Shown here piece by piece: positions 4,505 to 38,149 of a stretch of DNA of 40,408 nucleotides; position 1 is the first letter of the stretch; every line of letters starts with the position of its first letter. The notes below the pieces were generated by a model that worked only from the letters and a program-made list of their open reading frames with translations, was not told the DNA's origin and searched no databases. Both the position numbers and the translations under genes were made by a program. The DNA is from a virus (lineage: Duplodnaviria; Heunggongvirae; Uroviricota; Caudoviricetes). The DNA lies in IMG/VR virus record IMGVR_UViG_2529292759_000002, positions 1-40,408 of that record; one strand, 5' to 3'.

Positions 4505-5404
4505 TTACTTCATTCTGAAGACGCGTTGTGTCGTTGTTGTTTTGAATTTTTCGAATAACTCAGGGTGTACTGACTGGAATAGCTTCTGGTCGAATCTGTT
4601 GCTGATCTGAGATTTCCATGTGCAGAGCGGCTTTCCGTCCAGGGTCAGGACTGAGTGCTCTTGCATGTACATCTTCAGCTTCTCTTCTGATATAGCTATT
4701 TCTTCTTCCAGTGATTTTCTGCGTGACTTCATGTCTCGTAGATCGTTGAATAGTGCGAGTGCCTTTCCGTCAGCCTCGATACTTGTCCCGGCATCTTTCT
4801 CAAACATCAGCGATACATCGCTTACGCTGGTAGCTTCCGGCGGGTTAAGATTTTTCACTCGGTCCCAGAAAGCGATTTCTTTTTCTAAGATCGCCTGGAT
4901 AGTTTCTTCATCACGCTCAACCCGATAGATTCGGAAGTCGTCGCCACCGATAAGCACACCGAAAACGCATACCTGTTTGTTTGTAACCATCAACCCGTGC
5001 ATGGCCTGGGCCGTGTAATGCACAGGAATTGCATCTGTCTGGATTTCTCCCCATTCTTTGGCTTTGAACGGACTAACTGTTTTGATCTCAATGTTCTCGC
5101 CTGACGCTGCTTCTGCATCGATCTCAGCTGCAATAAAATCATAATCACGGTGGATATAGCGGTTTCCGCGATGAACGATTTCCATCCCTGTTTCCTCAGA
5201 AAGCAGGTCTATTACGTATGGCTCCATACGCTGGCCACGCGTGAAAACTTTCTGCTTGCTTGGGTCTACTGGTTTGACACGTGGCTGGACCTTATCCAGA
5301 TAAACCTCAAGCGGGGTGCGCCATGGGCTAATTCCAAGAATCCCTGCAACATCGCTTCCTCCGATGTATTTTGTTCTATCCATGATTCCAGCGTTCCGCA
5401 TCAT
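4505..5404 (-). CDS. YqaJ-type viral recombinase exonuclease (partner of RecT)
   Basis: 299 aa; YIGGSD..GILG and TRGQ..EP motifs typical of YqaJ/lambda-exo-like nucleases; immediately upstream of recT with ATGA overlap to the preceding gene. Confidence 0.8.
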   Translation of the reverse strand: MMRNAGIMDRTKYIGGSDVAGILGISPWRTPLEVYLDKVQPRVKPVDPSKQKVFTRGQRMEPYVIDLLSEETGMEIVHRGNRYIHRDYDFIAAEIDAEAASGENIEIKTVSPFKAKEWGEIQTDAIPVHYTAQAMHGLMVTNKQVCVFGVLIGGDDFRIYRVERDEETIQAILEKEIAFWDRVKNLNPPEATSVSDVSLMFEKDAGTSIEADGKALALFNDLRDMKSRRKSLEEEIAISEEKLKMYMQEHSVLTLDGKPLCTWKSQISNRFDQKLFQSVHPELFEKFKTTTTQRVFRMK

Positions 5405-5700
5405 GCCGCGTCCCTCTGCCCATCAAGCTGATCCGCCAGATCCCAGCGCGCTATAATTGCCATTGCCTCGCGCCGGTAGGCATCCATCAGTTCTTCGAAC
5501 TCAGGGCTGTCTTTAGCAGCCTCCAGCACTTCCTGACGAACGCCTTTGCCTGTTACAACGTCGAAAGTTGAGGACAGTTGATGAAGTCGGATGCTCTCAA
5601 TCAGTTCAACTTGTCGGTCATATAGCTGTTCTGACAGGCGGTAGTCCTTGTCGAATGCCAGCATGATTTTTTGAAGATTTTTCTGCTGATTAACGTTCAT
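5401..5700 (-). CDS. Hypothetical early protein (Gam/Abc-like position upstream of the recombination genes)
   Basis: About 100 aa from MNVNQQ; translationally coupled to flanking genes; function not recognisable. Confidence 0.5.
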   Translation of the reverse strand: MNVNQQKNLQKIMLAFDKDYRLSEQLYDRQVELIESIRLHQLSSTFDVVTGKGVRQEVLEAAKDSPEFEELMDAYRREAMAIIARWDLADQLDGQRDAA

Positions 5701-5702
5701 TA

Positions 5703-5855
5703 TCAGCCCTCCCATATCTCGTTATCGTTGGCTACATCGCGAGCTTCTTTGCTGACGAAAGCCCACTTAATGCCTTCCTGTAAGGTGCGGAACTTCCAGC
5801 TCATGAATCCGCATGCAGTAACGCAGTACCAACCGTTGATGATTTTCCACTGCAT
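5703..5855 (-). CDS. Small ORF, first gene of the leftward early operon (about 50 aa)
   Basis: Not in the ORF track (<60 aa); ATG at 5855 with GAGGT Shine-Dalgarno 6-10 nt upstream; stop abuts the next start. Confidence 0.4.
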   Translation of the reverse strand: MQWKIINGWYCVTACGFMSWKFRTLQEGIKWAFVSKEARDVANDNEIWEG

Positions 5856-6008: not shown

Positions 6009-6593
6009 TTATTGTTTGTTTTTTTCGTTCTGGTTGATGACAAATTCAATGTAACTTTCGATCTTTGCTTTCTCGGTTTCGGGTAACAATGCGTAGCGTG
6101 AGCGGTCATAGTTGATAGTCGCAGGGTCGTGCGGGTGAATCAGTAGTTCATATCCGTGACGCCCGAATGCGGATGCAACATTCTCCAGGGTGGAAATGGA
6201 AACGCTGACCTCATTGTTTAACAGGCGGCTGATTGTCACCTGGGCGACGCCGGATGCGCGGTGAAGTTTTCCCTGTGTTGAAAGGTCGCGGCTTTCGCTC
6301 ATCCAGCGTTCCAGGTTGTGAGCCGCCAGCTGACCTATATCGCTCGGGCCGACAGGCTGAAAACCCTCCTGAGAAAGCGAACGATCAATATCAAGCCAGT
6401 TACGGGGTTTATTGGCGGCAGCTTCAATTTTTCGTGCAACCTGGTCGCCGATAACCTTCTTGCCAAGAGCCCAGCGGTTTACCAGATTTGCCTGAGTTCC
6501 AAGTTTTTCTGCCATCCGCGTCTGAACACCATTGAATTCACGGTCGATCAAGTCGTTGAGATTTTGCCTGCGGACGTCCTGGATACTTTTCAT
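6009..6593 (-). CDS. Prophage repressor candidate: tandem HTH (XRE-like) protein with no recognisable S24 autopeptidase domain
   Basis: 194 aa; two HTH-like segments (QTRMAEKLGTQANLVNRWALG and ASGVAQVTISRLLNNEV); divergent from the Cro-like gene with operator-like palindromes between; no GxSM...K signature. Confidence 0.7.
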   Translation of the reverse strand: MKSIQDVRRQNLNDLIDREFNGVQTRMAEKLGTQANLVNRWALGKKVIGDQVARKIEAAANKPRNWLDIDRSLSQEGFQPVGPSDIGQLAAHNLERWMSESRDLSTQGKLHRASGVAQVTISRLLNNEVSVSISTLENVASAFGRHGYELLIHPHDPATINYDRSRYALLPETEKAKIESYIEFVINQNEKNKQ

Positions 6594-29719: not shown

Positions 29720-32194
29720 ATGAGACAGGAATGTATACAAGCGGTCCAGCAGGCGGCGCAGCGCACGTTAACGGCGCGAGAAATACAGAACATTGAAGAC
29801 CGCATTTATCGAAATATGCGCTCCATTGCTCGTGATGACCCGATGTCGTGGCGACAACTTTCCGAATCAGAACGGTTGTATCGTGCAGCACAATTGGCAT
29901 CTGAAGAATTACAGCGAGAAGCGACATTAAAGAAACGTCGTGTGGCTCTCACTATAGCCGCACGTCAGAGATTGGATAAATTTATCAATAGCTATCAAGG
30001 GGCTGATGGGAAACTTGGCGCTCTTAACCGTACTATTGCTTTTAATGCAGACGGTAAATCGAATTTCCTCTCTGTTGAATCCAGAACAAAAGCCACTCGT
30101 GATTATGCATTGAGTCAATTGCAGGAGGCATTTGAAGCAGTTGATCCTCGCTTTTTTGGCCTGTTTGAAGATGAAGCGGGCGTGCGTGATCTGGTATATG
30201 AAATGCGAGGGCAAAATACTGGCAATGCTAAAGCAAGAAAAGGTGCTAAGGCGTGGAGAGAAGTGACAGAGCTACTGCGCCGCCGGTTTAATGATGCTGG
30301 TGGTGACATTGGCTATCTCGAAAACTGGGGGATCCCTCAACATCATTCTATGGAAAAGGTTGGGGCGGTATCAAAAGATAAATGGGTTAGCGATGTTATA
30401 GGTAAGCTGGATCGCAAATATTATACCCGAGCCGATGGACAACTGATGAACGATGCCGAGTTGTCTGCATTTCTTGGAGAGGCTTATAACACGATCGCTA
30501 CTGGTGGGCTGAATAAGCTTACTGATACCGGAATGCGAATTTCCGGCGCACGTGCTAACCGTGGTAATGCATCACGACAGATACATTTCAAAGATGCAGA
30601 TTCCTATCTGCAATATCAGCAACTTTATGGCGATCGCTCTCTATGGGAAATCATGGTCGGTCACCTGGAAGGTATCAGTAAAGATATTGCACTGGTGGAA
30701 ACATATGGCCCAAACCCCGATCATGTTTTCCGCTCCCTTCTTGATCAGGTTAAGGCAGAAACGGCAACAGCTAACCCGAGTAAAACCGGTAAAGTCGAGC
30801 GGCTGGCGAACAACACAGAGAATCTGTACAACTTTATTTCTGGAAAGACACAGCCTGTAGCGAATCCGCACATCGCGCGATGGTCTGACAATATCCGCAA
30901 CTGGCTGGTTGCCAGCAGACTCGGATCCGCGTTGCTGTCATCGTTCTCTGATCTTGGAACCATGTATCTGTCTGCGAAGGTTACCAACCTTCCAATGAAC
31001 CAGTTATTCCGCAACCAGCTTGAAGCTATGGACCCAACGAACCGTACAGAACTTGCGCGGGCGCGCCGCGCTGGTCTGGCGATGGAATCTCTACTTGGCA
31101 GCGTTAACCGCTGGGCGATGGATAATATGGGGCCGTCAGTGTCTCGTTGGGCGGCAACGGCCGTAATGCGTGCCAGTGGGCTTACAGCATGGTCAGATGC
31201 GCACAAGCGCGCCTATGGCGTAACCATGATGGGAAGCCTGGGAGAAGTAGTGTCACGGACACCAGACCTTCGTAGCCTCGATGACTCTGATTTTCGTATC
31301 CTGAAAAGCAAAGGGATTACTGACACAGACTGGAGCGTATGGAAGCTGGCGCAACAGGAGGACTGGGGGAACGGTAATAATACGATGCTGACACCGGAAA
31401 GCATTATGCGTATCCCTGATTCAGCAGTTAAACATCTTGGTGAGCCTGAACGAGTGAAATTTGAGGCAATGCGTAAACTGCTCGGTGCCGTAACTGAAGA
31501 AGTTGATATGGCTGTTATTACACCGGGAGCACGTGAGCAACTGATAACCGGTTCTGGTATTCAGCGTGGAACATGGAAAGGTGAATTAACGAGAAGTGTT
31601 TTCCTGTTTAAATCGTTCCCTATCTCGGTTGTTATGCGTCACTGGTCACGCGCTATGGGTATGCCGTCTGCTGGTGGGCGTGCGGCATATATTGCGACGT
31701 TTATTGCCAGTACGACCATTCTTGGCGCTTTGTCGCAGCAACTTAACGACCTTGCGTCTGGTCGTAATCCTCGAGAGATGACAGGAGAAGGTGCCGCAAA
31801 ATTCTGGCTTGGTGCTCTACTGAAAGGTGGTGGCCTTGGCCTTTACGGTGACTTTTTATTGTCAGATCACACTAGGTACGGAAGCGGCGCGCTGGCGTCG
31901 ATGCTTGGCCCGGTAGCTGGTCTGGTTGATGACGTAGTGAAGATTGCTCAGGGCATACCGTTAAATGCTGTGGAAGGGAAGAGTGAGCAGACTGGTGGTG
32001 ATCTGGTGAAGCTGGGGAAAGGTTTGATGCCAGGTGCGAATCTCTGGTACTTAAAGGCGGCTCTCGATCATATGATCTTTAACCAGATGCAGGAGTATTT
32101 TTCACCAGGCTATTTGCGTAAAATGGAGCAACGTTCGAAGAAAGAGTTTAATCAGACATACTGGTGGCGACCTCAGGATGTCACTCCGCAATAA
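29720..32194 (+). CDS. Large internal virion / ejection protein
   Basis: 824 aa; last large gene of the ejection-protein block. Confidence 0.5.
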   Translation: MRQECIQAVQQAAQRTLTAREIQNIEDRIYRNMRSIARDDPMSWRQLSESERLYRAAQLASEELQREATLKKRRVALTIAARQRLDKFINSYQGADGKLGALNRTIAFNADGKSNFLSVESRTKATRDYALSQLQEAFEAVDPRFFGLFEDEAGVRDLVYEMRGQNTGNAKARKGAKAWREVTELLRRRFNDAGGDIGYLENWGIPQHHSMEKVGAVSKDKWVSDVIGKLDRKYYTRADGQLMNDAELSAFLGEAYNTIATGGLNKLTDTGMRISGARANRGNASRQIHFKDADSYLQYQQLYGDRSLWEIMVGHLEGISKDIALVETYGPNPDHVFRSLLDQVKAETATANPSKTGKVERLANNTENLYNFISGKTQPVANPHIARWSDNIRNWLVASRLGSALLSSFSDLGTMYLSAKVTNLPMNQLFRNQLEAMDPTNRTELARARRAGLAMESLLGSVNRWAMDNMGPSVSRWAATAVMRASGLTAWSDAHKRAYGVTMMGSLGEVVSRTPDLRSLDDSDFRILKSKGITDTDWSVWKLAQQEDWGNGNNTMLTPESIMRIPDSAVKHLGEPERVKFEAMRKLLGAVTEEVDMAVITPGAREQLITGSGIQRGTWKGELTRSVFLFKSFPISVVMRHWSRAMGMPSAGGRAAYIATFIASTTILGALSQQLNDLASGRNPREMTGEGAAKFWLGALLKGGGLGLYGDFLLSDHTRYGSGALASMLGPVAGLVDDVVKIAQGIPLNAVEGKSEQTGGDLVKLGKGLMPGANLWYLKAALDHMIFNQMQEYFSPGYLRKMEQRSKKEFNQTYWWRPQDVTPQ

Positions 32195-32389
32195 GGATGT
32201 GTTGTGTTTTTAATTATTTTGAGTGTGATAATTTCTGGTGGGTTGTTATTTATTGACCGCTACAAATATTTTCTTAACCCTCAGACTCAAGCTATTTGCT
32301 GGTTCATCTTTGTTGTGCAGGGAATAGTTCTTGTTGCAAGCCTTATTGAGGGGAGGCCTCTGATTTTTACTGGGTAAATAGGTGACTAC

Positions 32390-32686
32390 ATGCAAGCGAT
32401 AGGATTCATTGTTTATATCGTCGTTGGCCTTTTTCAGTTGGCAGCAATTATGGCTGGGCTTGAATCATGGTGGGGATTGCACTGGATAATTGCAGCCCCC
32501 ATTGCTTTCATCGTGAGCTATATTCCATTTGTTGGAGCGATTGTTGGTATGGTTGGCGCTGTGGATGTATGGCGGTGGGAGTGGTGGCAGGCTGGCCTTC
32601 TCTTCTTTGGTGGGATCATCTTTGCTATTGTCTGCGGTGGAATGTCATCATTTTTCGAATGGCTATCATTCAGAAAAGGGACGTGA
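32390..32686 (+). CDS. Small Trp-rich integral membrane protein (candidate superinfection-exclusion or lysogenic-conversion factor)
   Basis: 98 aa with 2-3 hydrophobic helices; located after the ejection proteins; followed by a bidirectional terminator. Confidence 0.45.
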   Translation: MQAIGFIVYIVVGLFQLAAIMAGLESWWGLHWIIAAPIAFIVSYIPFVGAIVGMVGAVDVWRWEWWQAGLLFFGGIIFAIVCGGMSSFFEWLSFRKGT

Positions 32687-32756
32687 CATGTCACAGGCCG
32701 CTTTCGCGGCCTTGTTTTTAACGAATGCCACCGCCGCCCGGGCGGGAATCCGCAGA

Positions 32757-32783
32757 CACAAAAAAGCCCGCGCTGCGGGCTTC
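32757..32783. terminator. Bidirectional intrinsic terminator
   Basis: GCCCGC-GCT-GCGGGC hairpin flanked by AAAAAA upstream and TTCTATT downstream; T-tract strongest for the minus strand. Confidence 0.7.
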
Positions 32784-32785
32784 TA

Positions 32786-33418
32786 TTAATGCAGTTTATC
32801 TTTGCTTATAACCAGTAGTCTGTGGGTATGCACATCTTTATCACTGCCCCAACAGAAATCAGCCCACTGGCTATAGAAATCATCCCATGATGTCATGAAG
32901 CTAAGAGGTCTATCTTCTTCAGAGCCATCTGAAACGTATACATTATATCCTGGGGTGTTTATAGCCCAAGAAATCATTCTTTCCCAGAATCTTCTCCCAT
33001 CGATTGTTTGTTGCTCATCAGATACAACGATCGCATATTGCTCTAGGAAGAACTGAAAAAAAATCTGAGGCAAACCATGAACAGCACGGTCATGAATAAC
33101 ATTAGGCGTACGCCATACCATGATCTGCGTACATGTTCTTTTGGCTTCGACGATATCTTCCCGAAAGATTAACTTAACCGCATACACCGTTTCTGGAGTA
33201 TCGCTGGTAGTAATCATTCTGTAATGATCGCCATTACAAGATTTTACAAGGCGATAACCATAAGGTGTTGTGAATCCCGGAAGAACGAAATCAACCACAC
33301 CTTTCGCTAAGTAGCTTTCGGTGTGACTAGTGTTCTTCTCAGACATGTTCAGTTTTCTATCGAAATCTGCTTCTGGGATAATGTATGGCATCGCTTTTCT
33401 TGTTGTATTTGTTCTCAT
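32786..33418 (-). CDS. Accessory protein of unknown function (210 aa), AT-rich
   Basis: Reverse strand within the late region; GGAGG 3 nt before the ATG; own upstream palindromic site and strong terminator. Confidence 0.55.
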   Translation of the reverse strand: MRTNTTRKAMPYIIPEADFDRKLNMSEKNTSHTESYLAKGVVDFVLPGFTTPYGYRLVKSCNGDHYRMITTSDTPETVYAVKLIFREDIVEAKRTCTQIMVWRTPNVIHDRAVHGLPQIFFQFFLEQYAIVVSDEQQTIDGRRFWERMISWAINTPGYNVYVSDGSEEDRPLSFMTSWDDFYSQWADFCWGSDKDVHTHRLLVISKDKLH

Positions 33419-33477
33419 TTCGTCCTCCCATGTTTGGCTACAGGACGCGTTTTGAAGGGAAGATTAAAAATGCTTTC

Positions 33478-33492
33478 TTACCCTTGAGGTAA
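33478..33492. promoter_or_regulatory. 15-bp palindrome (TTACCCTTGAGGTAA) upstream of the 210-aa accessory gene
   Basis: Perfect site 60 bp upstream of the ATG at 33418. Confidence 0.5.
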
Positions 33493-33565
33493 TAGTACGC
33501 TATTCACCCCCAGTCTGCAATCTGTACAGAATTATTTAAAGGCACATCCCTGTGCCGCCGTTCTG

Positions 33566-34261
33566 TCAGAAGAACCCTGCCTTGTCGTTGATGTACTCCG
33601 CGTGGGTCTGGATATCACGCAGGCATTTGCTCACACCGACGATGTAGCAGAACATGGTGGTCAGTTCCGCCGCCGCGCCCGATACGTCGTGCCCGTCTTC
33701 CTGTAACTGGTTCAGCAGATTCATCAGCAGTGAGTTCTCCGTCAGGCCGAGAACACCAGACGGCGAATGAATCAGGCTACGGTAGCCGGGCTTCAGTGGG
33801 GCACTGTAGGTTTTGTTCTCTATCTTCATCGCCTGCATTACTGCTGACGCCGTGGCGTTGGCTACCTGGTCGGCAACCATCTTTATGCGTTCTTCCTGCG
33901 GGAGCGAGTTTTTAATGTAACTTCCGGTGCGGCGGATCTGAGGAAGAACCTCACCTGTAACCCATTTACGAAAGCGGTAGGGGATAGTGCCTGGTGTCAC
34001 TGCGTCGCGGCAGCGGAGGATCAGTGTGTAGAGGCCTGACTCGGAGATGATGATCGATTCTTGCTCACCGCCAGGGGTGTCGGTTGAAGCGACGCCCTTC
34101 TCATCATCATCAAGTTTTCGAACAGCATCTCGATGGTTTGCTATGCCTATAGCCCGACAAACATCTGAAGCGATAAACCATGGCTCACCATTAATGACGA
34201 TTACCCGTATATCGGCTTGGGATTCGAAAGAAAAAATGGACGTGCTTTTTGTAGCTGTCAT
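33566..34261 (-). CDS. Bro-N / KilA-N domain antirepressor (Ant-like)
   Basis: 231 aa; N-terminal pattern IRVIVINGEPWFIASDVCRAIGIANHRDAVRKL...ESGLYTLILR typical of Bro-N antirepressors; C-terminal domain paralogous to the small upstream gene. Confidence 0.75.
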   Translation of the reverse strand: MTATKSTSIFSFESQADIRVIVINGEPWFIASDVCRAIGIANHRDAVRKLDDDEKGVASTDTPGGEQESIIISESGLYTLILRCRDAVTPGTIPYRFRKWVTGEVLPQIRRTGSYIKNSLPQEERIKMVADQVANATASAVMQAMKIENKTYSAPLKPGYRSLIHSPSGVLGLTENSLLMNLLNQLQEDGHDVSGAAAELTTMFCYIVGVSKCLRDIQTHAEYINDKAGFF

Positions 34262-34418
34262 AGTGGTTACCTTTTAGTCTGGTTAATCACCACTACCGAC
34301 GCCAATCGGTTGGTGGTGAACTGTGCAGGGTTGGCGTAACCGGCTAAAAGGACCCGGCGCACCTTTCGGTGCCCCCACACAGCCCACCATAATACGAATG
34401 TGGCCGTGCTATACGCAT

Positions 34419-34438
34419 AAAAAAACCGCTTGCGCGGT
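34419..34438 (-). terminator. Intrinsic terminator between the small SOS-box gene and the antirepressor gene
   Basis: Minus-strand ACCGCGCAAGCGGT hairpin followed by TTTTTTT. Confidence 0.55.
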
Positions 34439-34530
34439 GAATGCGCCTTTTAGTAATCCGGGACGCCAATCCCGGCACTGGATTTTGCCAGTGCTCGATT
34501 ACTATGGCACAAGAGGAGTGCGTTGTAAAT

Positions 34531-34545
34531 TTACCGCAAAGGTAA
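34531..34545. promoter_or_regulatory. 15-bp palindrome (TTACCGCAAAGGTAA) in the antirepressor upstream region
   Basis: Perfect site between the stop of the small gene and the terminator/leader of the antirepressor gene. Confidence 0.45.
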
Positions 34546-34576
34546 ATATAAGCACTCCATTTGGTGATTGCAAACC

Positions 34577-34834
34577 TTATCTGGTTTGTTTTCGTAATTG
34601 TTCGGCACAATAGTCGAGATGTGTTTGCAGATCCTGCATAGACATCTGTGAGCTGGTGACGTAGTTAATCAGTGCAGTCAGTTCGGCAAGTGGGCCATCG
34701 ACATTAAATCCATCCTTATCGAGATCCCGGAGTAATTTCATCAAGTGCGATCCCTCCACCAGTGACCTGACGCCTCCCGGCGTGTGAATCCTTTCGGTAA
34801 ATCCGTCTTCCAGTGGATAGTGATACTGCTGCAT
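34577..34834 (-). CDS. Small protein (85 aa) homologous to the C-terminal domain of the downstream antirepressor; SOS-box-preceded
   Basis: Start taken at the internal ATG (MQQYHYPLEDG...) because a LexA-type box and a palindromic site lie inside the longer ORF; GGAG Shine-Dalgarno 8 nt upstream; shared pattern IH.P.GV..L.E.S.LM.LL..L..DG..V.G...ELT...Y...L.D.QTH..Y with Ant residues about 155-225. Confidence 0.6.
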   Translation of the reverse strand: MQQYHYPLEDGFTERIHTPGGVRSLVEGSHLMKLLRDLDKDGFNVDGPLAELTALINYVTSSQMSMQDLQTHLDYCAEQLRKQTR

Positions 34835-34853
34835 CTTATCTTCTCCATGCAAT

Positions 34854-34873
34854 AACTGTATATTTATACAGTA
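34854..34873. promoter_or_regulatory. LexA (SOS) box
   Basis: AACTGTATATTTATACAGTA: CTGT-N8-ACAG with AT-rich spacer, 18/20 to the E. coli consensus; about 22 bp upstream of the small gene start. Confidence 0.75.
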
Positions 34874-34910
34874 GCAAATAATTTGTTTGCTATCCAGCAC
34901 GTTTTGCAAA

Positions 34911-34925
34911 TTACCTGAAAGGTAA
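34911..34925. promoter_or_regulatory. 15-bp palindrome (TTACCTGAAAGGTAA) upstream of the SOS box
   Basis: Perfect site about 40 bp upstream of the LexA box on the transcribed strand. Confidence 0.5.
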
Positions 34926-35029
34926 TATCTATTCGTATTTACAGCCTTTCTATCCATATGTGGTTTTCCAGGTAATAGAATAACCAGATATGCGGCGCAA
35001 CGGGTGCTGCGACTATCTGGAGATTTAAC

Positions 35030-38000
35030 ATGACGGTCTCAACCGAAGTTGACCACAACGAATACACCGGTAACGGCGTTACGACATCGTTTCCGTATAC
35101 TTTTCGAATTTTCAGAAAATCAGACCTGGTTGTTCAGGTGTCTGACCTGAACGGAAACGTAACAGAATTGGTTCTGGATACCGGTTATACGGTAACTGGG
35201 GCGGGCACTTATAGTGGCGGTTCTGTGGTTCTTCCGTCTCCGCTTGCTACTGGATGGCGAATTACGATAGATCGTGTGCTTGATGTAGTGCAGGAGACAG
35301 ACCTTCGCAATCAGGGAAAATTTTTCCCCGAAGTGCATGAAGATGCCTTTGACTACCTGACGATGCTGATCCAGCAATGTTTTGGGTGGTTCAGACGTGC
35401 ATTGATGAAACCATCTTTGCTTGCAAAATATTACGATGCAAAGCAAAACAAAATTTCTAACCTTGCAGATCCATCATTTGAGCAGGACGCTGTAAATAAT
35501 CGCTCAATGCGTAATTATGTCGATGCTGCAATCGCCGGGGTTGTTGGTGGTTTTGGTTGGTTTATTCAGTATGGTTCTGGGGCTGTGTACCGAACGTTCC
35601 AGGATAAAATGCGTGATGCTATTAGCCCCAAAGATTTTGGAGCTGTTGGTGATGGTATAAATGACGATTCCACTGCAATAAGCGCGTGCCTTGAAGCCTC
35701 ATCTCCAGGTTATAAAATTGACGGATTAGGGCTTACTCTTAAAGTATCAACTCTTCCGGATGTCAGTCGATTTAAAAATGCTCGTTTTTTATTTGAGAGA
35801 ATACCGGGCCAGCCTCTTTTTTATGCTTCTGAAGATTTTATCCAGGGAGAGTTATTTAAAATTACAGATACACCGTGGTACAACGCCTGGACGCAGGATA
35901 AAACGTTTGTATATGACAATGTCATCTATGCGCCTTTTATGGCTGGAGACCGCCATGGTGTAAATAACCTCCATGTTGCATGGGTTCGCTCAGGAGATGA
36001 CGGGAAGACCTGGACAACGCCGGAATGGCTTACAGATTTACATGAAAACTATCCCACAGTTAACTATCACTGCATGAGTATGGGGGTTGTCAGAAATCGC
36101 CTTTTTGCTGTAATTGAGACGCGGACCGTGAGCGGAAATAAACTGCAGGTTGCAGAGTTGTGGGATCGCCCAATGAGTCGCAGCCTTCGCGTTTATGGTG
36201 GTATAACGAAAGCAGCAAATCAGCAAGTCGCTTATATTCGCATTACTGATCACGGATTATTTGCTGGTGATTTTGTCAACTTCTCAAACTCTGGTGTTAC
36301 AGGTGTTACCGGGAATATGACGGTGACTACTGTTATTGATAAAAATACTTTTACAGTTACGACGCAAAATACCCAGGATGTGGATCAGAATAACGAGGGT
36401 AGATACTGGAGTTTTGGTACATCATTTCACTCGTCACCATGGAGAAAAACCAGTCTTGGAACTATTCCTTCTTTTGTTGACGGAAGCACTCCTGTTACTG
36501 AGATTCACAGTTTTGCGACGATTAGCGATAACAGTTTTGCTGTTGGCTACCATAATGGTGATATTGGTCCACGCGAGCTTGGGATACTCTATTTCTCTGA
36601 TGCTTTCGGTTCTCCTGGTAGCTTTGTTCGCAGACGCATACCTGCAGAATATGAGGCGAATGCATCTGAGCCATGTGTAAAATATTATGATGGCATTCTG
36701 TATCTGACGACCAGGGGGACATTAAGTACTCAACCCGGTAGTTCATTGCACAGAAGCTCTGATTTAGGTACATCATGGAATTCTCTTCGCTTCCCAAATA
36801 ATGTTCATCACTCAAACCTTCCTTTTGCCAAAGTTGGCGATGAGCTGATTATTTTTGGCAGTGAGCGCGCATTTGGTGAGTGGGAAGGAGGAGAACCTGA
36901 TAACCGTTATGCAGGAAACTATCCAAGAACATTTATGACCAGAGTTAACGTCAATGAGTGGAGTCTGGATAATGTAGAGTGGGTTAATGTTACTGATCAG
37001 ATTTATCAGGGCGGAATAGTTAACTCTGCGGTTGGTGTTGGTTCAGTTTGTATCAAAGACAACTGGCTGTACTACATTTTCGGTGGGGAAGACTTTCTAA
37101 ACCCATGGAGCATAGGGGATAACAACAGAAAATATCCTTATGTTCACGATGGTCACCCGGCTGATTTGTATTGTTTCAGGGTGAAAATTAAACAGGAAGA
37201 ATTTGTTTCAAGGGATTTTGTCTACGGAGCCACTCCTAACAGAACGCTTCCTACTTTTATGTCGACGTCAGGCGTGAGGACGGTTCCTGTACCCGTTGAT
37301 TTCACAGATGATGTTGCCGTCCAGTCACTGACTGTCCATGCAGGTACATCAGGACAAGTTCGCGCGGAAGTCAAACTTGAGGGTAATTACGCCATTATTG
37401 CGAAGAAAGTACCGTCTGATGATGTTACCGCTCAGAGATTAATCGTTAGCGGCGGTGAAACAACGTCTTCAGCAGATGGTGCAATGATAACGTTGCATGG
37501 TTCCGGAAGCAGTACTCCACGTCGCGCGGTATATAACGCACTCGAACATCTTTTTGAGAACGGAGATGTTAAACCTTATCTTGATAATGTAAATGCTCTT
37601 GGTGGTCCGGGAAACAGGTTCTCGACAGTTTATCTTGGCTCCAATCCTGTGGTTACCAGTGACGGAACATTAAAGACAGAGCCGGTCTCTCCTGACGAAG
37701 CATTGCTGGATGCCTGGGGTGACGTCAGGTATATCGCTTATAAATGGCTGAACGCTGTCGCTATAAAGGGGGAAGAAGGGGCGAGGATACATCATGGTGT
37801 AATCGCGCAGCAACTTCGTGATGTTCTTATTTCTCACGGACTCATGGAAGAAGAAAGCACAACATGCCGCTATGCCTTTCTTTGCTATGACGATTATCCC
37901 GCAGTATATGATGACGTCATTACTGGCCAAAGGGAAATGCCGCTGACTGATAATGACGGGAGCATCATTGTTGATGAGGATGATAATCCAGTGATGGTAA

Positions 38001-38149
38001 TAGAAGACATCATTGAGCGCGTTGAAATAACGCCAGCAGGATCTAGATGGGGGGTCAGACCTGATCTCTTATTCTATATCGAGGCAGCATGGCAGCGCAG
38101 AGAAATGGATAAGATAAAAGAGCGGGTTCAGTCTCTGGAAGAACGTTAA
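35030..38149 (+). CDS. Tailspike / tail fibre depolymerase with T7 gp17-like N-terminal anchor and C-terminal intramolecular chaperone domain
   Basis: 1039 aa; N-terminus YTGNGVTTSFPYTFRIFRKSDLVV resembles the T7 tail-fibre N-terminal domain; DFGAVGDGINDDSTAI motif typical of beta-helix (pectate-lyase-like) enzymes; Asp-box-like SGDDGKTW and SDLGTSW; C-terminal region (YLDNVNALGG...RIHHGVIAQQLRDVL...) resembles peptidase-S74 chaperone domains. Confidence 0.8.
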   Translation: MTVSTEVDHNEYTGNGVTTSFPYTFRIFRKSDLVVQVSDLNGNVTELVLDTGYTVTGAGTYSGGSVVLPSPLATGWRITIDRVLDVVQETDLRNQGKFFPEVHEDAFDYLTMLIQQCFGWFRRALMKPSLLAKYYDAKQNKISNLADPSFEQDAVNNRSMRNYVDAAIAGVVGGFGWFIQYGSGAVYRTFQDKMRDAISPKDFGAVGDGINDDSTAISACLEASSPGYKIDGLGLTLKVSTLPDVSRFKNARFLFERIPGQPLFYASEDFIQGELFKITDTPWYNAWTQDKTFVYDNVIYAPFMAGDRHGVNNLHVAWVRSGDDGKTWTTPEWLTDLHENYPTVNYHCMSMGVVRNRLFAVIETRTVSGNKLQVAELWDRPMSRSLRVYGGITKAANQQVAYIRITDHGLFAGDFVNFSNSGVTGVTGNMTVTTVIDKNTFTVTTQNTQDVDQNNEGRYWSFGTSFHSSPWRKTSLGTIPSFVDGSTPVTEIHSFATISDNSFAVGYHNGDIGPRELGILYFSDAFGSPGSFVRRRIPAEYEANASEPCVKYYDGILYLTTRGTLSTQPGSSLHRSSDLGTSWNSLRFPNNVHHSNLPFAKVGDELIIFGSERAFGEWEGGEPDNRYAGNYPRTFMTRVNVNEWSLDNVEWVNVTDQIYQGGIVNSAVGVGSVCIKDNWLYYIFGGEDFLNPWSIGDNNRKYPYVHDGHPADLYCFRVKIKQEEFVSRDFVYGATPNRTLPTFMSTSGVRTVPVPVDFTDDVAVQSLTVHAGTSGQVRAEVKLEGNYAIIAKKVPSDDVTAQRLIVSGGETTSSADGAMITLHGSGSSTPRRAVYNALEHLFENGDVKPYLDNVNALGGPGNRFSTVYLGSNPVVTSDGTLKTEPVSPDEALLDAWGDVRYIAYKWLNAVAIKGEEGARIHHGVIAQQLRDVLISHGLMEEESTTCRYAFLCYDDYPAVYDDVITGQREMPLTDNDGSIIVDEDDNPVMVIEDIIERVEITPAGSRWGVRPDLLFYIEAAWQRREMDKIKERVQSLEER

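What the first reader, a model, noticed from the sequence alone, without database searches (positions are those of the whole stretch)
32195..33492. Accessory island after the ejection-protein genes: small Trp-rich membrane protein and a reverse-strand 210-aa unknown protein
The 98-aa Trp-rich membrane protein (32390-32686, plus strand) and the AT-rich 210-aa protein (32786-33418, minus strand) converge on a strong bidirectional terminator (32757-32783). The 210-aa gene has its own palindromic site (33478-33492) and a strong ribosome-binding site. Neither matches a family I recognise. Their position mirrors where P22-like phages carry sieA and immI, so exclusion or host-modifying functions are plausible.
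Basis: inference. Interest (0 to 1): 0.6.

Follow-up and report, generated by a model that had tools for sequence, protein, structure and literature searches.

The report
Phage cargo gene wired to repressor
Two unrelated things sit side by side in an epsilon15-like E. coli prophage: a small membrane protein that closes the virion gene operon, and a swappable cargo gene for an uncharacterised protein with an acetyltransferase-like fold, whose promoter carries the phage's own operator, so it is probably switched on at infection or induction and not in the resting lysogen.

Summary
The described features are mostly present, but the interpretation needs revision.

- **Phage type.** The window is a Uetakevirus (epsilon15/phiV10-like), not P22-like.
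- **98-aa protein.** The Trp-rich membrane protein is not island cargo. It is the conserved last gene of the late virion operon in epsilon15-like prophages of four genera.
- **Terminators.** There are two, one per strand, not one bidirectional site. Between them lies the remnant of a deleted 53-aa gene.
- **Palindrome.** Copies flank the repressor gene and abut -10 elements of most transcription units.
- **Neighbouring module.** A P1-type immI module (c4 antisense RNA plus a Bro-N antirepressor) lies next door.

Best reading: a repressor-gated accessory GNAT-fold protein expressed on infection or induction. Its target is unknown, and counter-defence or host modification is the most plausible role. 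Lysogen exclusion is disfavoured but not excluded.

The parts
29720..32194 (+). 824-aa gp17-like virion-internal (ejection-type) structural protein; the last large gene of the late operon (context)
   Evidence: phrog_684 'virion structural protein', E=0. Same position as PhiV10p20.
32204..32377 (+). 57-aa ORF (GTG start, AAGGA Shine-Dalgarno) with two hydrophobic helices; positional counterpart of PhiV10p21
   Evidence: No sequence similarity to PhiV10p21. Positional analogy only.
32390..32686 (+). 98-aa Trp-rich small membrane protein (PHROG 3075); conserved last gene of the late virion operon
   Evidence: Synteny in four genera. Conserved Trp and Gly residues. Helical model at pLDDT 91 with no structural neighbour.
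32695..32722 (+). Intrinsic terminator of the late operon (GGCCGC-TTTC-GCGGCC followed by TGTTTTT)
   Evidence: Fold energy -14.3 kcal/mol, z = -2.6. Annotated as a terminator in phiV10.
32718..32756 (-). 3' remnant (12 codons plus stop) of a 53-aa signal-peptide gene (WP_000708858.1) lost through a 192-bp deletion at 32756/32757
   Evidence: Alignment with CE10 and 2020S05-235. Translations.
32752..32784 (-). Intrinsic terminator of the 210-aa gene (GCCCGC-AGC-GCGGGC followed by UUUUUUGUG on the minus strand)
   Evidence: Fold energy -20.4 kcal/mol, z = -2.9 on the minus strand.
32786..33418 (-). 210-aa cytoplasmic protein (PHROG 1349) with a GNAT-like fold; exchangeable cargo gene
33424..33429 (-). 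Shine-Dalgarno sequence GGGAGG, five nt before the ATG; predicted to pair with upstream CUUCCC/CGUCCU
   Evidence: The pairing is not significant against shuffles.
33478..33492 (.). Operator-type palindrome TTACC-N5-GGTAA, one of 14 in the window, spanning about -7 to +8 of the putative promoter
33492..33520 (-). Putative sigma-70 promoter of the 210-aa gene: -35 TTGCAG (33520-33515), 17-nt spacer, -10 TACTAT (33497-33492)
   Evidence: It scores 7 of 12 consensus positions, below the threshold of the general scan. The same GTACTAT-TACC design occurs at the terS promoter (12542) and upstream of the LLS homologue.
33541..33556 (-). Hairpin GGCACA-GGGA-TGTGCC just after the antirepressor stop codon; a weak terminator or insulator upstream of the cargo promoter
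   Evidence: -17.2 kcal/mol for the surrounding 51 nt, z = -4.1.
33566..34261 (-). 231-aa Bro-N antirepressor-type gene (context: immI-like module)
   Evidence: Pfam Bro-N, E = 2e-21. PHROG anti-repressor Ant.
34309..34507 (-). C4 antisense RNA (34309-34394), isrK-like RNA (34419-34494) and a1/b1 targets (34455-34507): a P1/P7-type immI control region (context)
   Evidence: Rfam: 77.7, 77.9 and 43.1 bits.
34531..34574 (-). Promoter TTTGCA-N18-TATATT with an operator copy (34531-34545) abutting the -10 element; drives the c4-ant operon (context)

Best explanation
The interval holds two unrelated units.

**Unit 1: the end of the late virion operon (32204-32722).** Two small inner-membrane proteins, 57 aa and 98 aa, are read through from the 824-aa ejection-type protein gene. 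Transcription stops at the plus-strand terminator. The 98-aa protein is a backbone gene of epsilon15-like phages. I infer, at low confidence, that it is a late-expressed membrane partner of the internal (ejection) proteins, or a protector of the producing cell. I do not think it is a lysogen exclusion factor.

**Unit 2: a self-contained cargo cassette on the other strand (32752-33520).** Its parts, in order, are a promoter (TTGCAG-17-TACTAT), an operator (TTACC-N5-GGTAA) across the transcription start, a strong ribosome-binding site, a 210-aa cytoplasmic protein and a terminator. It sits in an exchangeable slot just downstream of the phage's P1-type immI module (c4 RNA plus Bro-N antirepressor).
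- The operator is the same element that flanks the two-HTH repressor gene and abuts the -10 elements of the early-left, terS and c4-ant promoters. The cassette is therefore wired into the phage's lysis-lysogeny switch.
- The inference is that the gene is off while the repressor is present and on at infection or induction.
- The protein has a GNAT-type acyltransferase fold with a degenerate CoA pyrophosphate loop. Its conserved polar and aromatic residues are N29, Y79, W102-R103, D134 and W145.
- The most likely mode of action is binding, and probably acylation, of a host or competitor macromolecule during the lytic or establishment phase, that is, counter-defence or host modification.

**Shown versus inferred.** Shown: the anatomy, the family distribution, the fold, the motif statistics and the promoter design. 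Inferred: who binds the operator, when the gene is expressed, whether the protein is an enzyme, and what it targets.
For: **Phage identity and slot variability**
- Identity. Variable slot content.

**98-aa protein**
- Conserved position directly after the gp17-like gene in four genera. No promoter of its own predicted.

**210-aa gene as a moron**
- GC 40.8% against 48.7% for the window.
- Present in 93 of 5426 E. coli genomes at 99% identity or more.
- Found in an epsilon15-like podovirus, Serratia and Leclercia siphoviruses between the chaperone and tape-measure genes, P1-like elements, lambdoid phage LLS after the spanins, ParA plasmid-like elements, and as a chromosomal orphan between ppc and metF in Xenorhabdus.

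**Fold**
- AlphaFold model: pLDDT 80, pTM 0.77.
- BFVD Foldseek finds uncharacterised phage proteins first (E = 3e-10, including the lytic jumbo phage Atu_ph07), then 'NAT_SF' and 'Acyl-CoA N-acyltransferase' proteins.
- Two distant family members carry a canonical RxxGxG immediately after the conserved W-R, at the predicted beta4-alpha3 junction.
- The family comprises 920 clusters (at 50% identity) at E <= 1e-3.

**Operator**
- 14 copies in the window against 0.79 expected.
- 14 copies at equivalent places in phiV10, which lacks the 210-aa gene.
- Paired copies lie on both sides of the two-HTH repressor gene 6009-6593.
- A -10 hexamer ends on the first T of the site at the early-left (TTGACA-17-AATTAT), terS, c4-ant and 210-aa promoters.
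- Every alternative cargo in the same slot carries the site just upstream.
- In the Uetakevirus ZX5, overexpressing a repressor reported to have the same sequence as phiV10 ORF40 cut lysis-gene transcripts by more than 99.9% (PMC9782041).

**immI module**
- Rfam C4 and isrK hits above the gathering score; a1/b1 just below it.
Against: - No experiment shows which protein binds TTACC-N5-GGTAA.
- The promoter matches only 7 of 12 consensus positions and fell below the scan threshold.
- hicBA cargo in Cronobacter sits behind the same site. A toxin-antitoxin pair would be expected to act in lysogens, so the site may not give full silencing.
- The same palindrome is conserved upstream of homologues in phages with an unrelated repressor: LLS, where it is the only perfect copy in that genome, and L049. 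The repressor model alone does not explain this.
- The canonical Q/RxxGxG/A motif is absent at the homologous place in this protein (R103-T-P-N-V-I) and in most of the family. CoA binding and catalysis are therefore uncertain.
- No target is known. PADLOC gives nothing either way.
Confidence: 0.4

Rival explanations
1. The 210-aa gene is a lysogenic-conversion or defence moron expressed from the prophage. It protects the lysogen against other phages, by exclusion or abortive infection, or it modifies the host.
For: - Classic moron anatomy: own promoter and terminator, low GC, and opposite strand to the late genes.
- The slot carries hicBA in Cronobacter.
- In L049 the gene lies directly downstream of, and co-directional with, an Arc/Mnt-like gene.
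- Chromosomal orphan copies are retained in Xenorhabdus.
Against: - An operator copy lies across the promoter's -10/+1 region, in the same design as the lytic promoters.
- There is no PADLOC match.
- Relatives occur in lytic jumbo phages.
Confidence: 0.2
2. The protein is a non-catalytic GNAT-fold protein that acts by binding. One possibility is that it modulates the neighbouring antirepressor/repressor switch; another is that it sequesters a host factor.
For: - The CoA P-loop is degenerate in most of the family.
- The gene recurs next to antirepressor-type genes (Bro-N, P22_AR_N, pRha, KilA-N) and Arc/Mnt-like genes in many unrelated phage backbones.
- One distant member is fused to the MqsA N-terminal (toxin-binding) domain.
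Against: - Several polar residues are nearly invariant across 25%-identity relatives (N29, Y79, D134). This fits an active or ligand-binding site.
- Antirepressor regions are general accessory hotspots, so adjacency may carry no functional meaning.
- Orientation relative to the antirepressor gene is not conserved.
Confidence: 0.15
3. The protein is a GNAT-type toxin of the TacT/AtaT kind, kept silent by the repressor and an SD-occluding leader. It kills or arrests the cell once it is expressed.
For: - GNAT fold.
- The leader is predicted to pair with the Shine-Dalgarno sequence in most homologues.
- The same slot holds a toxin-antitoxin pair in Cronobacter.
Against: - There is no adjacent RHH or DUF1778 antitoxin.
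- The only frequent neighbour, the 53-aa signal-peptide gene, is deleted in the window and absent from the Klebsiella-type loci while the 210-aa gene stays intact.
- There is no Pfam acetyltransferase match.
- The SD pairing is not better than in shuffled leaders.
Confidence: 0.08
4. The 98-aa membrane protein is a SieA-like superinfection-exclusion protein.
For: - It lies directly after the ejection-type protein genes and before the immI-like module, as sieA does in P22 (established P22 gene order, from my own knowledge).
- It is a small inner-membrane protein.
Against: - No similarity to any named exclusion family in PHROGs or Pfam.
- No promoter or operator of its own; it is tightly packed behind late genes.
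- It is conserved as a backbone gene and is not variable.
Confidence: 0.15

Closest known systems
GNAT (GCN5-related N-acetyltransferase) superfamily, e.g. NatD/Naa40 (4ua3) and the acetyl-CoA-binding C-terminal domain of M. tuberculosis ICL2/Rv1916 (6edw, 8g8k)
   Different: No sequence or profile similarity was found. The glycines of motif A are missing in this protein. It has an extra N-terminal helical segment of about 50 residues and an extra helix before the last strand. Cofactor binding is untested.
Phage GNAT-fold effectors: Mu Mom (DNA methylcarbamoylation; PMC7261163) and AcrVA5 (acetylates Cas12a; my own knowledge)
   Same: These are small phage-encoded proteins with a GNAT fold that are used in conflicts with host defences, and they are encoded at the periphery of structural gene blocks.
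   Different: hhalign probability against Mom is 0.1%. There is no com-like translational activator. AcrVA5 is much smaller. No target is known here.
Morons in the sense of Hendrix: autonomous promoter-gene-terminator units in late operons of temperate phages (e.g. lambda bor and lom, P22 sieA)
   Same: The cassette has its own promoter and terminator, a deviating GC content, and presence/absence among close relatives. It is inserted between late genes in several phage types.
   Different: Its promoter carries the phage's operator, so it looks tied to the lytic switch and not constitutively expressed in the lysogen.
P1/P7 immI (c4 antisense RNA, icd, ant) together with dispersed C1 operators
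   Same: A C4-type RNA with a1/b1 targets lies upstream of an antirepressor gene. One operator type is scattered over about 14 promoters around the genome. This resembles the many C1 operators of P1 (my own knowledge).
   Different: The antirepressor is of the Bro-N type. The operator is a symmetric TTACC-N5-GGTAA, unlike the asymmetric 17-mer of P1. The host phage is an epsilon15-like podovirus.
P22 sieA / immI region
   Same: The gene order is the same: ejection-type proteins, then a small membrane protein, then the antirepressor module, then the tailspike.
   Different: The phage lineage differs and there is no sequence similarity. No Arc or Mnt is present here. The 98-aa gene lacks a promoter of its own.

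Membership tests
GNAT superfamily | Mixed alpha/beta GNAT core fold with parallel beta4/beta5 | tested here: met
GNAT superfamily | Motif A Q/R-x-x-G-x-G/A (pyrophosphate loop) at the beta4-alpha3 junction | tested here: not met
   This protein reads W102-R103-T-P-N-V-I. Only 13 of 213 family members have the pattern anywhere. Two of them (P0164, P0228) have it at the homologous position.
GNAT superfamily | Match to a Pfam acetyltransferase profile, or sequence similarity to solved GNATs | tested here: not met
   None of 74 diverse members matches any Pfam acetyltransferase family. The PDB profile search found nothing. hhalign against RimI, whose sequence I recalled from memory, gave probability 0.3%.
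GNAT superfamily | Binds acyl-CoA and transfers the acyl group | not testable with these tools
   Needs DSF or ITC with acetyl-CoA and an activity assay.
Moron (autonomous accessory unit in a prophage) | Own promoter and terminator, deviating composition, and presence/absence among close relatives | tested here: met
   Terminator. Promoter-like element with operator. GC 40.8% against 48.7%. Variable slot content. Present in 93 of 5426 genomes.
P22 SieA-type exclusion protein (for the 98-aa protein) | Similarity to a known exclusion family, and expression in the lysogen from its own promoter | tested here: not met
   Only PHROG 3075 (unknown function), with a sub-threshold holin hit at E = 0.027. 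No promoter predicted upstream. No structural neighbour. Expression itself was not measured.
immI-type immunity module (neighbourhood claim) | Antirepressor gene under antisense-RNA or Arc/Mnt control | tested here: met
   Bro-N antirepressor. Rfam C4 at 77.7 bits (gathering score 45), isrK at 77.9 bits (gathering score 50), a1b1 at 43.1 bits (gathering score 46.7). The module is P1-type, not P22-type.
GNAT toxin-antitoxin (TacT/AtaT/KacT type) | Adjacent RHH or DUF1778 antitoxin gene in one operon | tested here: not met
   No such neighbour was seen in the contexts examined. The 53-aa neighbour has a signal peptide and is dispensable.
Mom-like DNA modification enzymes | Sequence or profile similarity to Mu Mom | tested here: not met
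   hhalign probability 0.1%.
Known anti-phage defence systems | Match to a PADLOC model | tested here: not met
   No hit at E <= 1 for any of five proteins in the region.

The most novel reading that the evidence does not exclude
The 210-aa protein founds an unrecognised, widespread family of GNAT-derived effectors: 920 clusters at 50% identity, spanning temperate phages, phage-plasmids, lytic jumbo phages and chromosomal orphans. Phages would deploy them at infection or induction to covalently disarm a host defence or other host factor. The cassette would also carry a portable operator (TTACC-N5-GGTAA) that stays under selection in phages whose own repressor is unrelated. That would imply a shared trans-acting regulator, from the host or a co-resident prophage, that gates exchangeable cargo across unrelated phages.
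Probability: 0.2. Interest if true: 0.7.

Novelty: new variant of a known kind. Interest (0 to 1): 0.45.

Why it matters
- If the 210-aa family is an enzyme aimed at host or competitor molecules, it would add a large family, currently annotated only as 'hypothetical', to the short list of enzymatic phage effectors such as Mom and AcrVA5.
- The operator finding gives a direct and inexpensive handle on when cargo in this slot is expressed.
- It also suggests that epsilon15-like phages control nearly all their transcription units with one dispersed operator, as P1 does.
- For annotation, the work shows that the 98-aa protein is a backbone gene. The variable, repressor-gated slot lies between the late-operon terminator and the antirepressor gene. 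This is useful when mining K1 and ExPEC prophages for cargo.

Tried and rejected
**Searches that found nothing**
- Pfam, NCBIfam, PADLOC and PDB sequence searches of both proteins.
- A Pfam scan of 74 diverse family members gave only scattered single chance hits.
- A PDB profile search with alignment A3 gave one chance hit, CSE4, at E = 0.62.
- Foldseek of the 98-aa model against the PDB found nothing below E = 5.
- A text search for WP_001260052 found no paper. The DefensePredictor paper and the accessory-gene screen do not mention this protein or a GNAT.

**Relationships tested and rejected**
- Mu Mom, followed up from a literature lead: hhalign probability 0.1%.
- E. coli RimI as a canonical GNAT: hhalign probability 0.3%.
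- The idea that QTIDGRR (137-143) is motif A. Alignment with distant members places the RxxGxG of P0164 and P0228 after W102-R103. The regex hits near position 140-150 lie inside the following helix.
- The LLS repressor as binder of the palindrome: it is unrelated to the window's repressor, and LLS has only one perfect copy of the site.
- The 57-aa ORF against PhiV10p21 and against the Klebsiella 102-aa ORF: no similarity.

**Analyses that were inconclusive**
- A conserved SD-occluding leader hairpin. Each homologue folds that way. RNAalifold found no common structure on the alignment, and the pairing probability is not clearly above shuffled leaders. I treat it as unproven.

**Resources that were unavailable**
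- The AFDB50 fold library was not installed.
- The search for related loci with the broad alignment failed for lack of a conserved stretch.
- The Brenes and Laub 2025 paper is not held.
Full report
**What the window is.** Megablast of the interval and annotation of the best hits place the window in the genus Uetakevirus (epsilon15/phiV10-like temperate podoviruses of E. coli). It is not among the P22-like phages. The 824-aa gene ending at 32194 corresponds to PhiV10p20, the gp17-like virion structural protein (phrog_684). Downstream, on the minus strand, come a Bro-N antirepressor-type gene (33566-34261; Pfam E = 2e-21) and an epsilon15p19-like gene. The 1039-aa tailspike follows on the plus strand; RefSeq annotates the equivalent tailspike gene of E. 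coli O7:K1 CE10 as an endosialidase.

**Check of the observation.**
- Both ORFs exist as described.
- The 98-aa protein has 8 Trp, is strongly hydrophobic and is modelled as four helices at pLDDT 91.
- The 210-aa gene has 40.8% GC against 48.7% for the window. It has no hydrophobic segment and a GGGAGG Shine-Dalgarno sequence five nt before the ATG.
- The terminator description is only partly right. The late operon ends at its own terminator (32695-32722). The hairpin at 32762-32784 carries its U-run on the minus strand and terminates the 210-aa gene.
- Between the two terminators lies the 3' remnant of a 53-aa gene with a signal peptide (MKKAFAALFVLLSLVASTQAFA...). This gene is intact in CE10, 2020S05-235, phiv142-3 and most IMG/VR relatives. 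The window lacks 192 bp at 32756/32757. Two IMG/VR prophages share the window's arrangement, and the 83%-identity Klebsiella-type loci also lack the small gene, so the arrangement is natural.

**The 98-aa protein is backbone, not cargo.**
- Its family (PHROG 3075, 52 clusters) is found in E. coli, Klebsiella, Cronobacter, Dickeya, Yersinia, Kosakonia and Salmonella.
- In the three other genera examined it sits 1-36 nt after the last large virion-internal protein gene, on the same strand, and is followed by the antirepressor region.
- No promoter is predicted ahead of it or of the preceding 57-aa two-helix ORF.
- The tryptophans (W27, W61, W63, W65) and several glycines are conserved.
- The basic C-terminus suggests an N-out, C-in topology, with the WxWxWW belt at the periplasmic interface. 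This is an inference.
- Nothing similar is found in Pfam (one sub-threshold holin hit, E = 0.027) or among solved structures.
- Among complete E. coli genomes, 205 of 5426 carry this segment. Only 93 carry the 210-aa gene, so the two genes are independent.

**The 210-aa gene is exchangeable cargo.**
- In the same slot, between the late terminator and the antirepressor gene, relatives carry other genes. Cronobacter has hicA-hicB. Klebsiella and ExPEC XM have ORFs of about 62 and about 110 aa. phiv142-3 has three small ORFs. phiV10 has only a 29-aa ORF.
- Conversely, the 210-aa family (PHROG 1349) occupies accessory positions in other phage types:
  - between the tail chaperone-like gene and the tape-measure gene of Serratia and Leclercia siphoviruses, next to P22-type antirepressor and Arc genes;
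  - between baseplate genes and the SLT gene of P1-like elements;
  - after the spanins of lambdoid phage LLS;
  - in ParA-bearing plasmid-like elements, together with a paralogue;
  - as a lone chromosomal gene between ppc and metF in Xenorhabdus bovienii.
- The close family spans 63 clusters in about 18 genera of Enterobacterales, almost all 199-237 aa long. A profile search finds 920 clusters (50% identity) at E <= 1e-3.
- Structural relatives occur in the lytic jumbo phage Atu_ph07, and a weak sequence match occurs in Burkholderia phage BCSR5, whose record is 227 kb long.

**What the 210-aa protein looks like.**
- No Pfam, NCBIfam, PADLOC or PDB sequence match exists for it or for 74 diverse relatives.
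- An AlphaFold model from 35 homologues has pLDDT 80 and pTM 0.77.
- Foldseek against viral models finds uncharacterised phage proteins first, then 'NAT_SF' and 'Acyl-CoA N-acyltransferase' proteins.
- From the secondary-structure order I map beta4 to TQIMVWR(97-103), alpha3 to 116-127, beta5 to AIVVSD(129-134) and alpha4 to 139-154.
- Two distant members (P0164 RFDGVG, P0228 RQAGRG) have the canonical motif A directly after the conserved W-R. This supports the mapping and descent from true GNATs. In this protein and most relatives the glycines are gone.
- Residues kept in at least 90% of sequences at 25% mean identity are N29, Y79, W102, D134 and W145.
- The fold-level assignment is therefore reasonably secure. 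Membership by the sequence criteria fails, and catalysis is open.
- Mom of phage Mu, a GNAT-fold DNA modifier (PMC7261163), is not detectably related.
- One distant member is fused to the N-terminal zinc-ribbon domain of MqsA. Another has a sub-threshold SAD/SRA match.

**The palindrome is the key regulatory clue.**
- Pairs of sites lie on both sides of the 194-aa gene at 6009-6593. That gene has two HTH domains and corresponds to the phiV10/ZX5 repressor.
- Other copies precede int, a DUF1064 gene, terS, the portal region, the c4-ant operon, the epsilon15p19-like/tailspike divergent region and the 210-aa gene.
- phiV10, which lacks the 210-aa gene, also has 14 copies at the equivalent places. 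The element therefore belongs to the phage's own circuit.
- At the early-left promoter (TTGACA-17-AATTAT), the terS promoter (TACTAT), the c4-ant promoter (TTTGCA-18-TATATT) and the 210-aa promoter (TTGCAG-17-TACTAT), the -10 hexamer ends on the first T of the site. A bound dimer would then cover about -7 to +8.
- In epsilon15-like prophages, every alternative cargo in this slot has a copy just upstream.
- Rfam adds a C4 antisense RNA, its a1/b1 targets and an isrK-like RNA upstream of the Bro-N gene. This is a P1/P7-type immI module.
- The simplest reading is that one repressor silences dispersed promoters, as C1 does in P1 (my own knowledge), and that the cargo slot is one of them.
- Under that reading the 210-aa gene would be off in a stable lysogen and on at infection or after induction or antirepression.
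- This is inference: no binding or expression data exist here. The ZX5 study shows only that repressor overexpression abolishes lysis-gene transcription (PMC9782041).

**An unexplained point.**
- The same palindrome, with conserved half-sites and a variable spacer, precedes homologues in other backgrounds. In lambdoid phage LLS (84% protein identity) it is the only perfect copy in that genome, and the LLS repressor is unrelated. In L049 (70% identity) it is perfect. It occurs with one mismatch in the Klebsiella-type and Serratia loci.
- With gene-level DNA identity of 68-76%, ten specified bases would rarely stay intact by chance. The site therefore seems selected, yet its binder in those phages is unknown.
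- The core resembles the E. coli MqsA operator ACCT-N3-AGGT (my own knowledge). I could not test this.

**Mechanism and rivals.**
- Best-supported account (confidence about 0.4 for the whole chain): a repressor-gated accessory cassette makes a cytoplasmic GNAT-fold protein during infection or induction. The protein binds and probably acylates a host or competitor molecule, most plausibly for counter-defence or host modification.
- Rivals:
  - a lysogen-expressed defence or exclusion moron (0.2);
  - a non-catalytic binder linked to the antirepressor switch (0.15);
  - a solitary GNAT toxin (0.08).
- For the 98-aa protein, I favour a late-expressed membrane partner of the ejection-protein module. 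A SieA-like role is a weaker alternative (0.15).

**Verdict.** The phage is epsilon15-like. The membrane protein is a backbone gene. There are two terminators with a deleted gene between them. The 'own palindromic site' is a copy of the phage-wide operator. The 210-aa protein is an uncharacterised GNAT-fold family member of unknown target. The finding is of moderate interest (0.45). It is a new variant of known kinds, namely a moron and a GNAT-fold phage effector, and its regulation is directly testable.

Noticed in passing
window 151, 5875, 5937, 6649, 6697, 8956, 9018, 12542, 12560, 15493, 16111, 33478, 34531, 34911: Fourteen copies of TTACC-N5-GGTAA (0.79 expected) lie ahead of most transcription units and on both sides of the two-HTH repressor gene 6009-6593. 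phiV10 has the same number at equivalent places. This looks like a dispersed operator system of the kind P1 uses with C1.
   Followed up: partly
window 34309-34507 (minus): Rfam finds a C4 antisense RNA (77.7 bits), an isrK-like RNA (77.9 bits) and the c4 a1/b1 targets (43.1 bits, just under the gathering score) upstream of the Bro-N antirepressor gene. This is a P1/P7-type immI module in an epsilon15-like podovirus.
   Followed up: partly
window 32718-32756; L004:4019-4180: A 192-bp deletion removes most of a 53-aa gene with a signal peptide (WP_000708858.1). The gene is intact in most relatives and accompanies several different cargos in this slot.
   Followed up: yes
L077 (phage LLS) 42053-42067; L049:3935; L005:5889: The same palindrome is conserved upstream of 210-aa homologues in phages with an unrelated repressor, or with no other copy of the site. 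Its binder in those phages is unknown.
   Followed up: partly
window 33421-33470 and the homologous leaders in L005, L015, L049, L063 and others: The leaders of most homologues are predicted to pair an upstream CUCC/GUCC stretch with the Shine-Dalgarno sequence. The Serratia-type leaders also contain a terminator-like hairpin (GCCGAAGC...GCTTCGGC followed by a U-run) about 50 nt before the start codon. The pairing is not statistically distinguishable from shuffled leaders.
   Followed up: partly
window 34577-34957 (minus) and 33566-34261: The 126-aa ORF, annotated as 85 aa in relatives (epsilon15p19-like), shares its C-terminal domain (phrog_450, phrog_15539) with the C-terminus of the Bro-N antirepressor. 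This suggests a duplicated or stand-alone antirepressor C-domain.
   Followed up: no
window 35030-38149: RefSeq annotates the equivalent tailspike gene in CE10 and ExPEC XM as containing an endosialidase catalytic beta-propeller domain. That points to a K1-capsule-specific tailspike on a Uetakevirus backbone. The N-terminus is the conserved epsilon15-type adaptor.
   Followed up: no
L067:2540-3169 (IMG/VR ParA plasmid-like element): A 209-aa paralogue of the family lies two genes from the main copy. At the beta4-alpha3 position it reads VGRDYRGVKLAP, which is closer to GNAT motif A than the window's protein.
   Followed up: no
L012, L013 (Xenorhabdus bovienii), 5001-5639: A family member sits alone between the housekeeping genes ppc and metF, with no phage genes within 5 kb. 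It looks like a domesticated or stranded copy.
   Followed up: no
L017-L019 (Cronobacter sakazakii) 5362-5847: The slot that holds the 210-aa gene in the window carries a hicA-hicB toxin-antitoxin pair here, with a perfect TTACCTTAAAGGTAA 13 nt upstream of hicB.
   Followed up: partly
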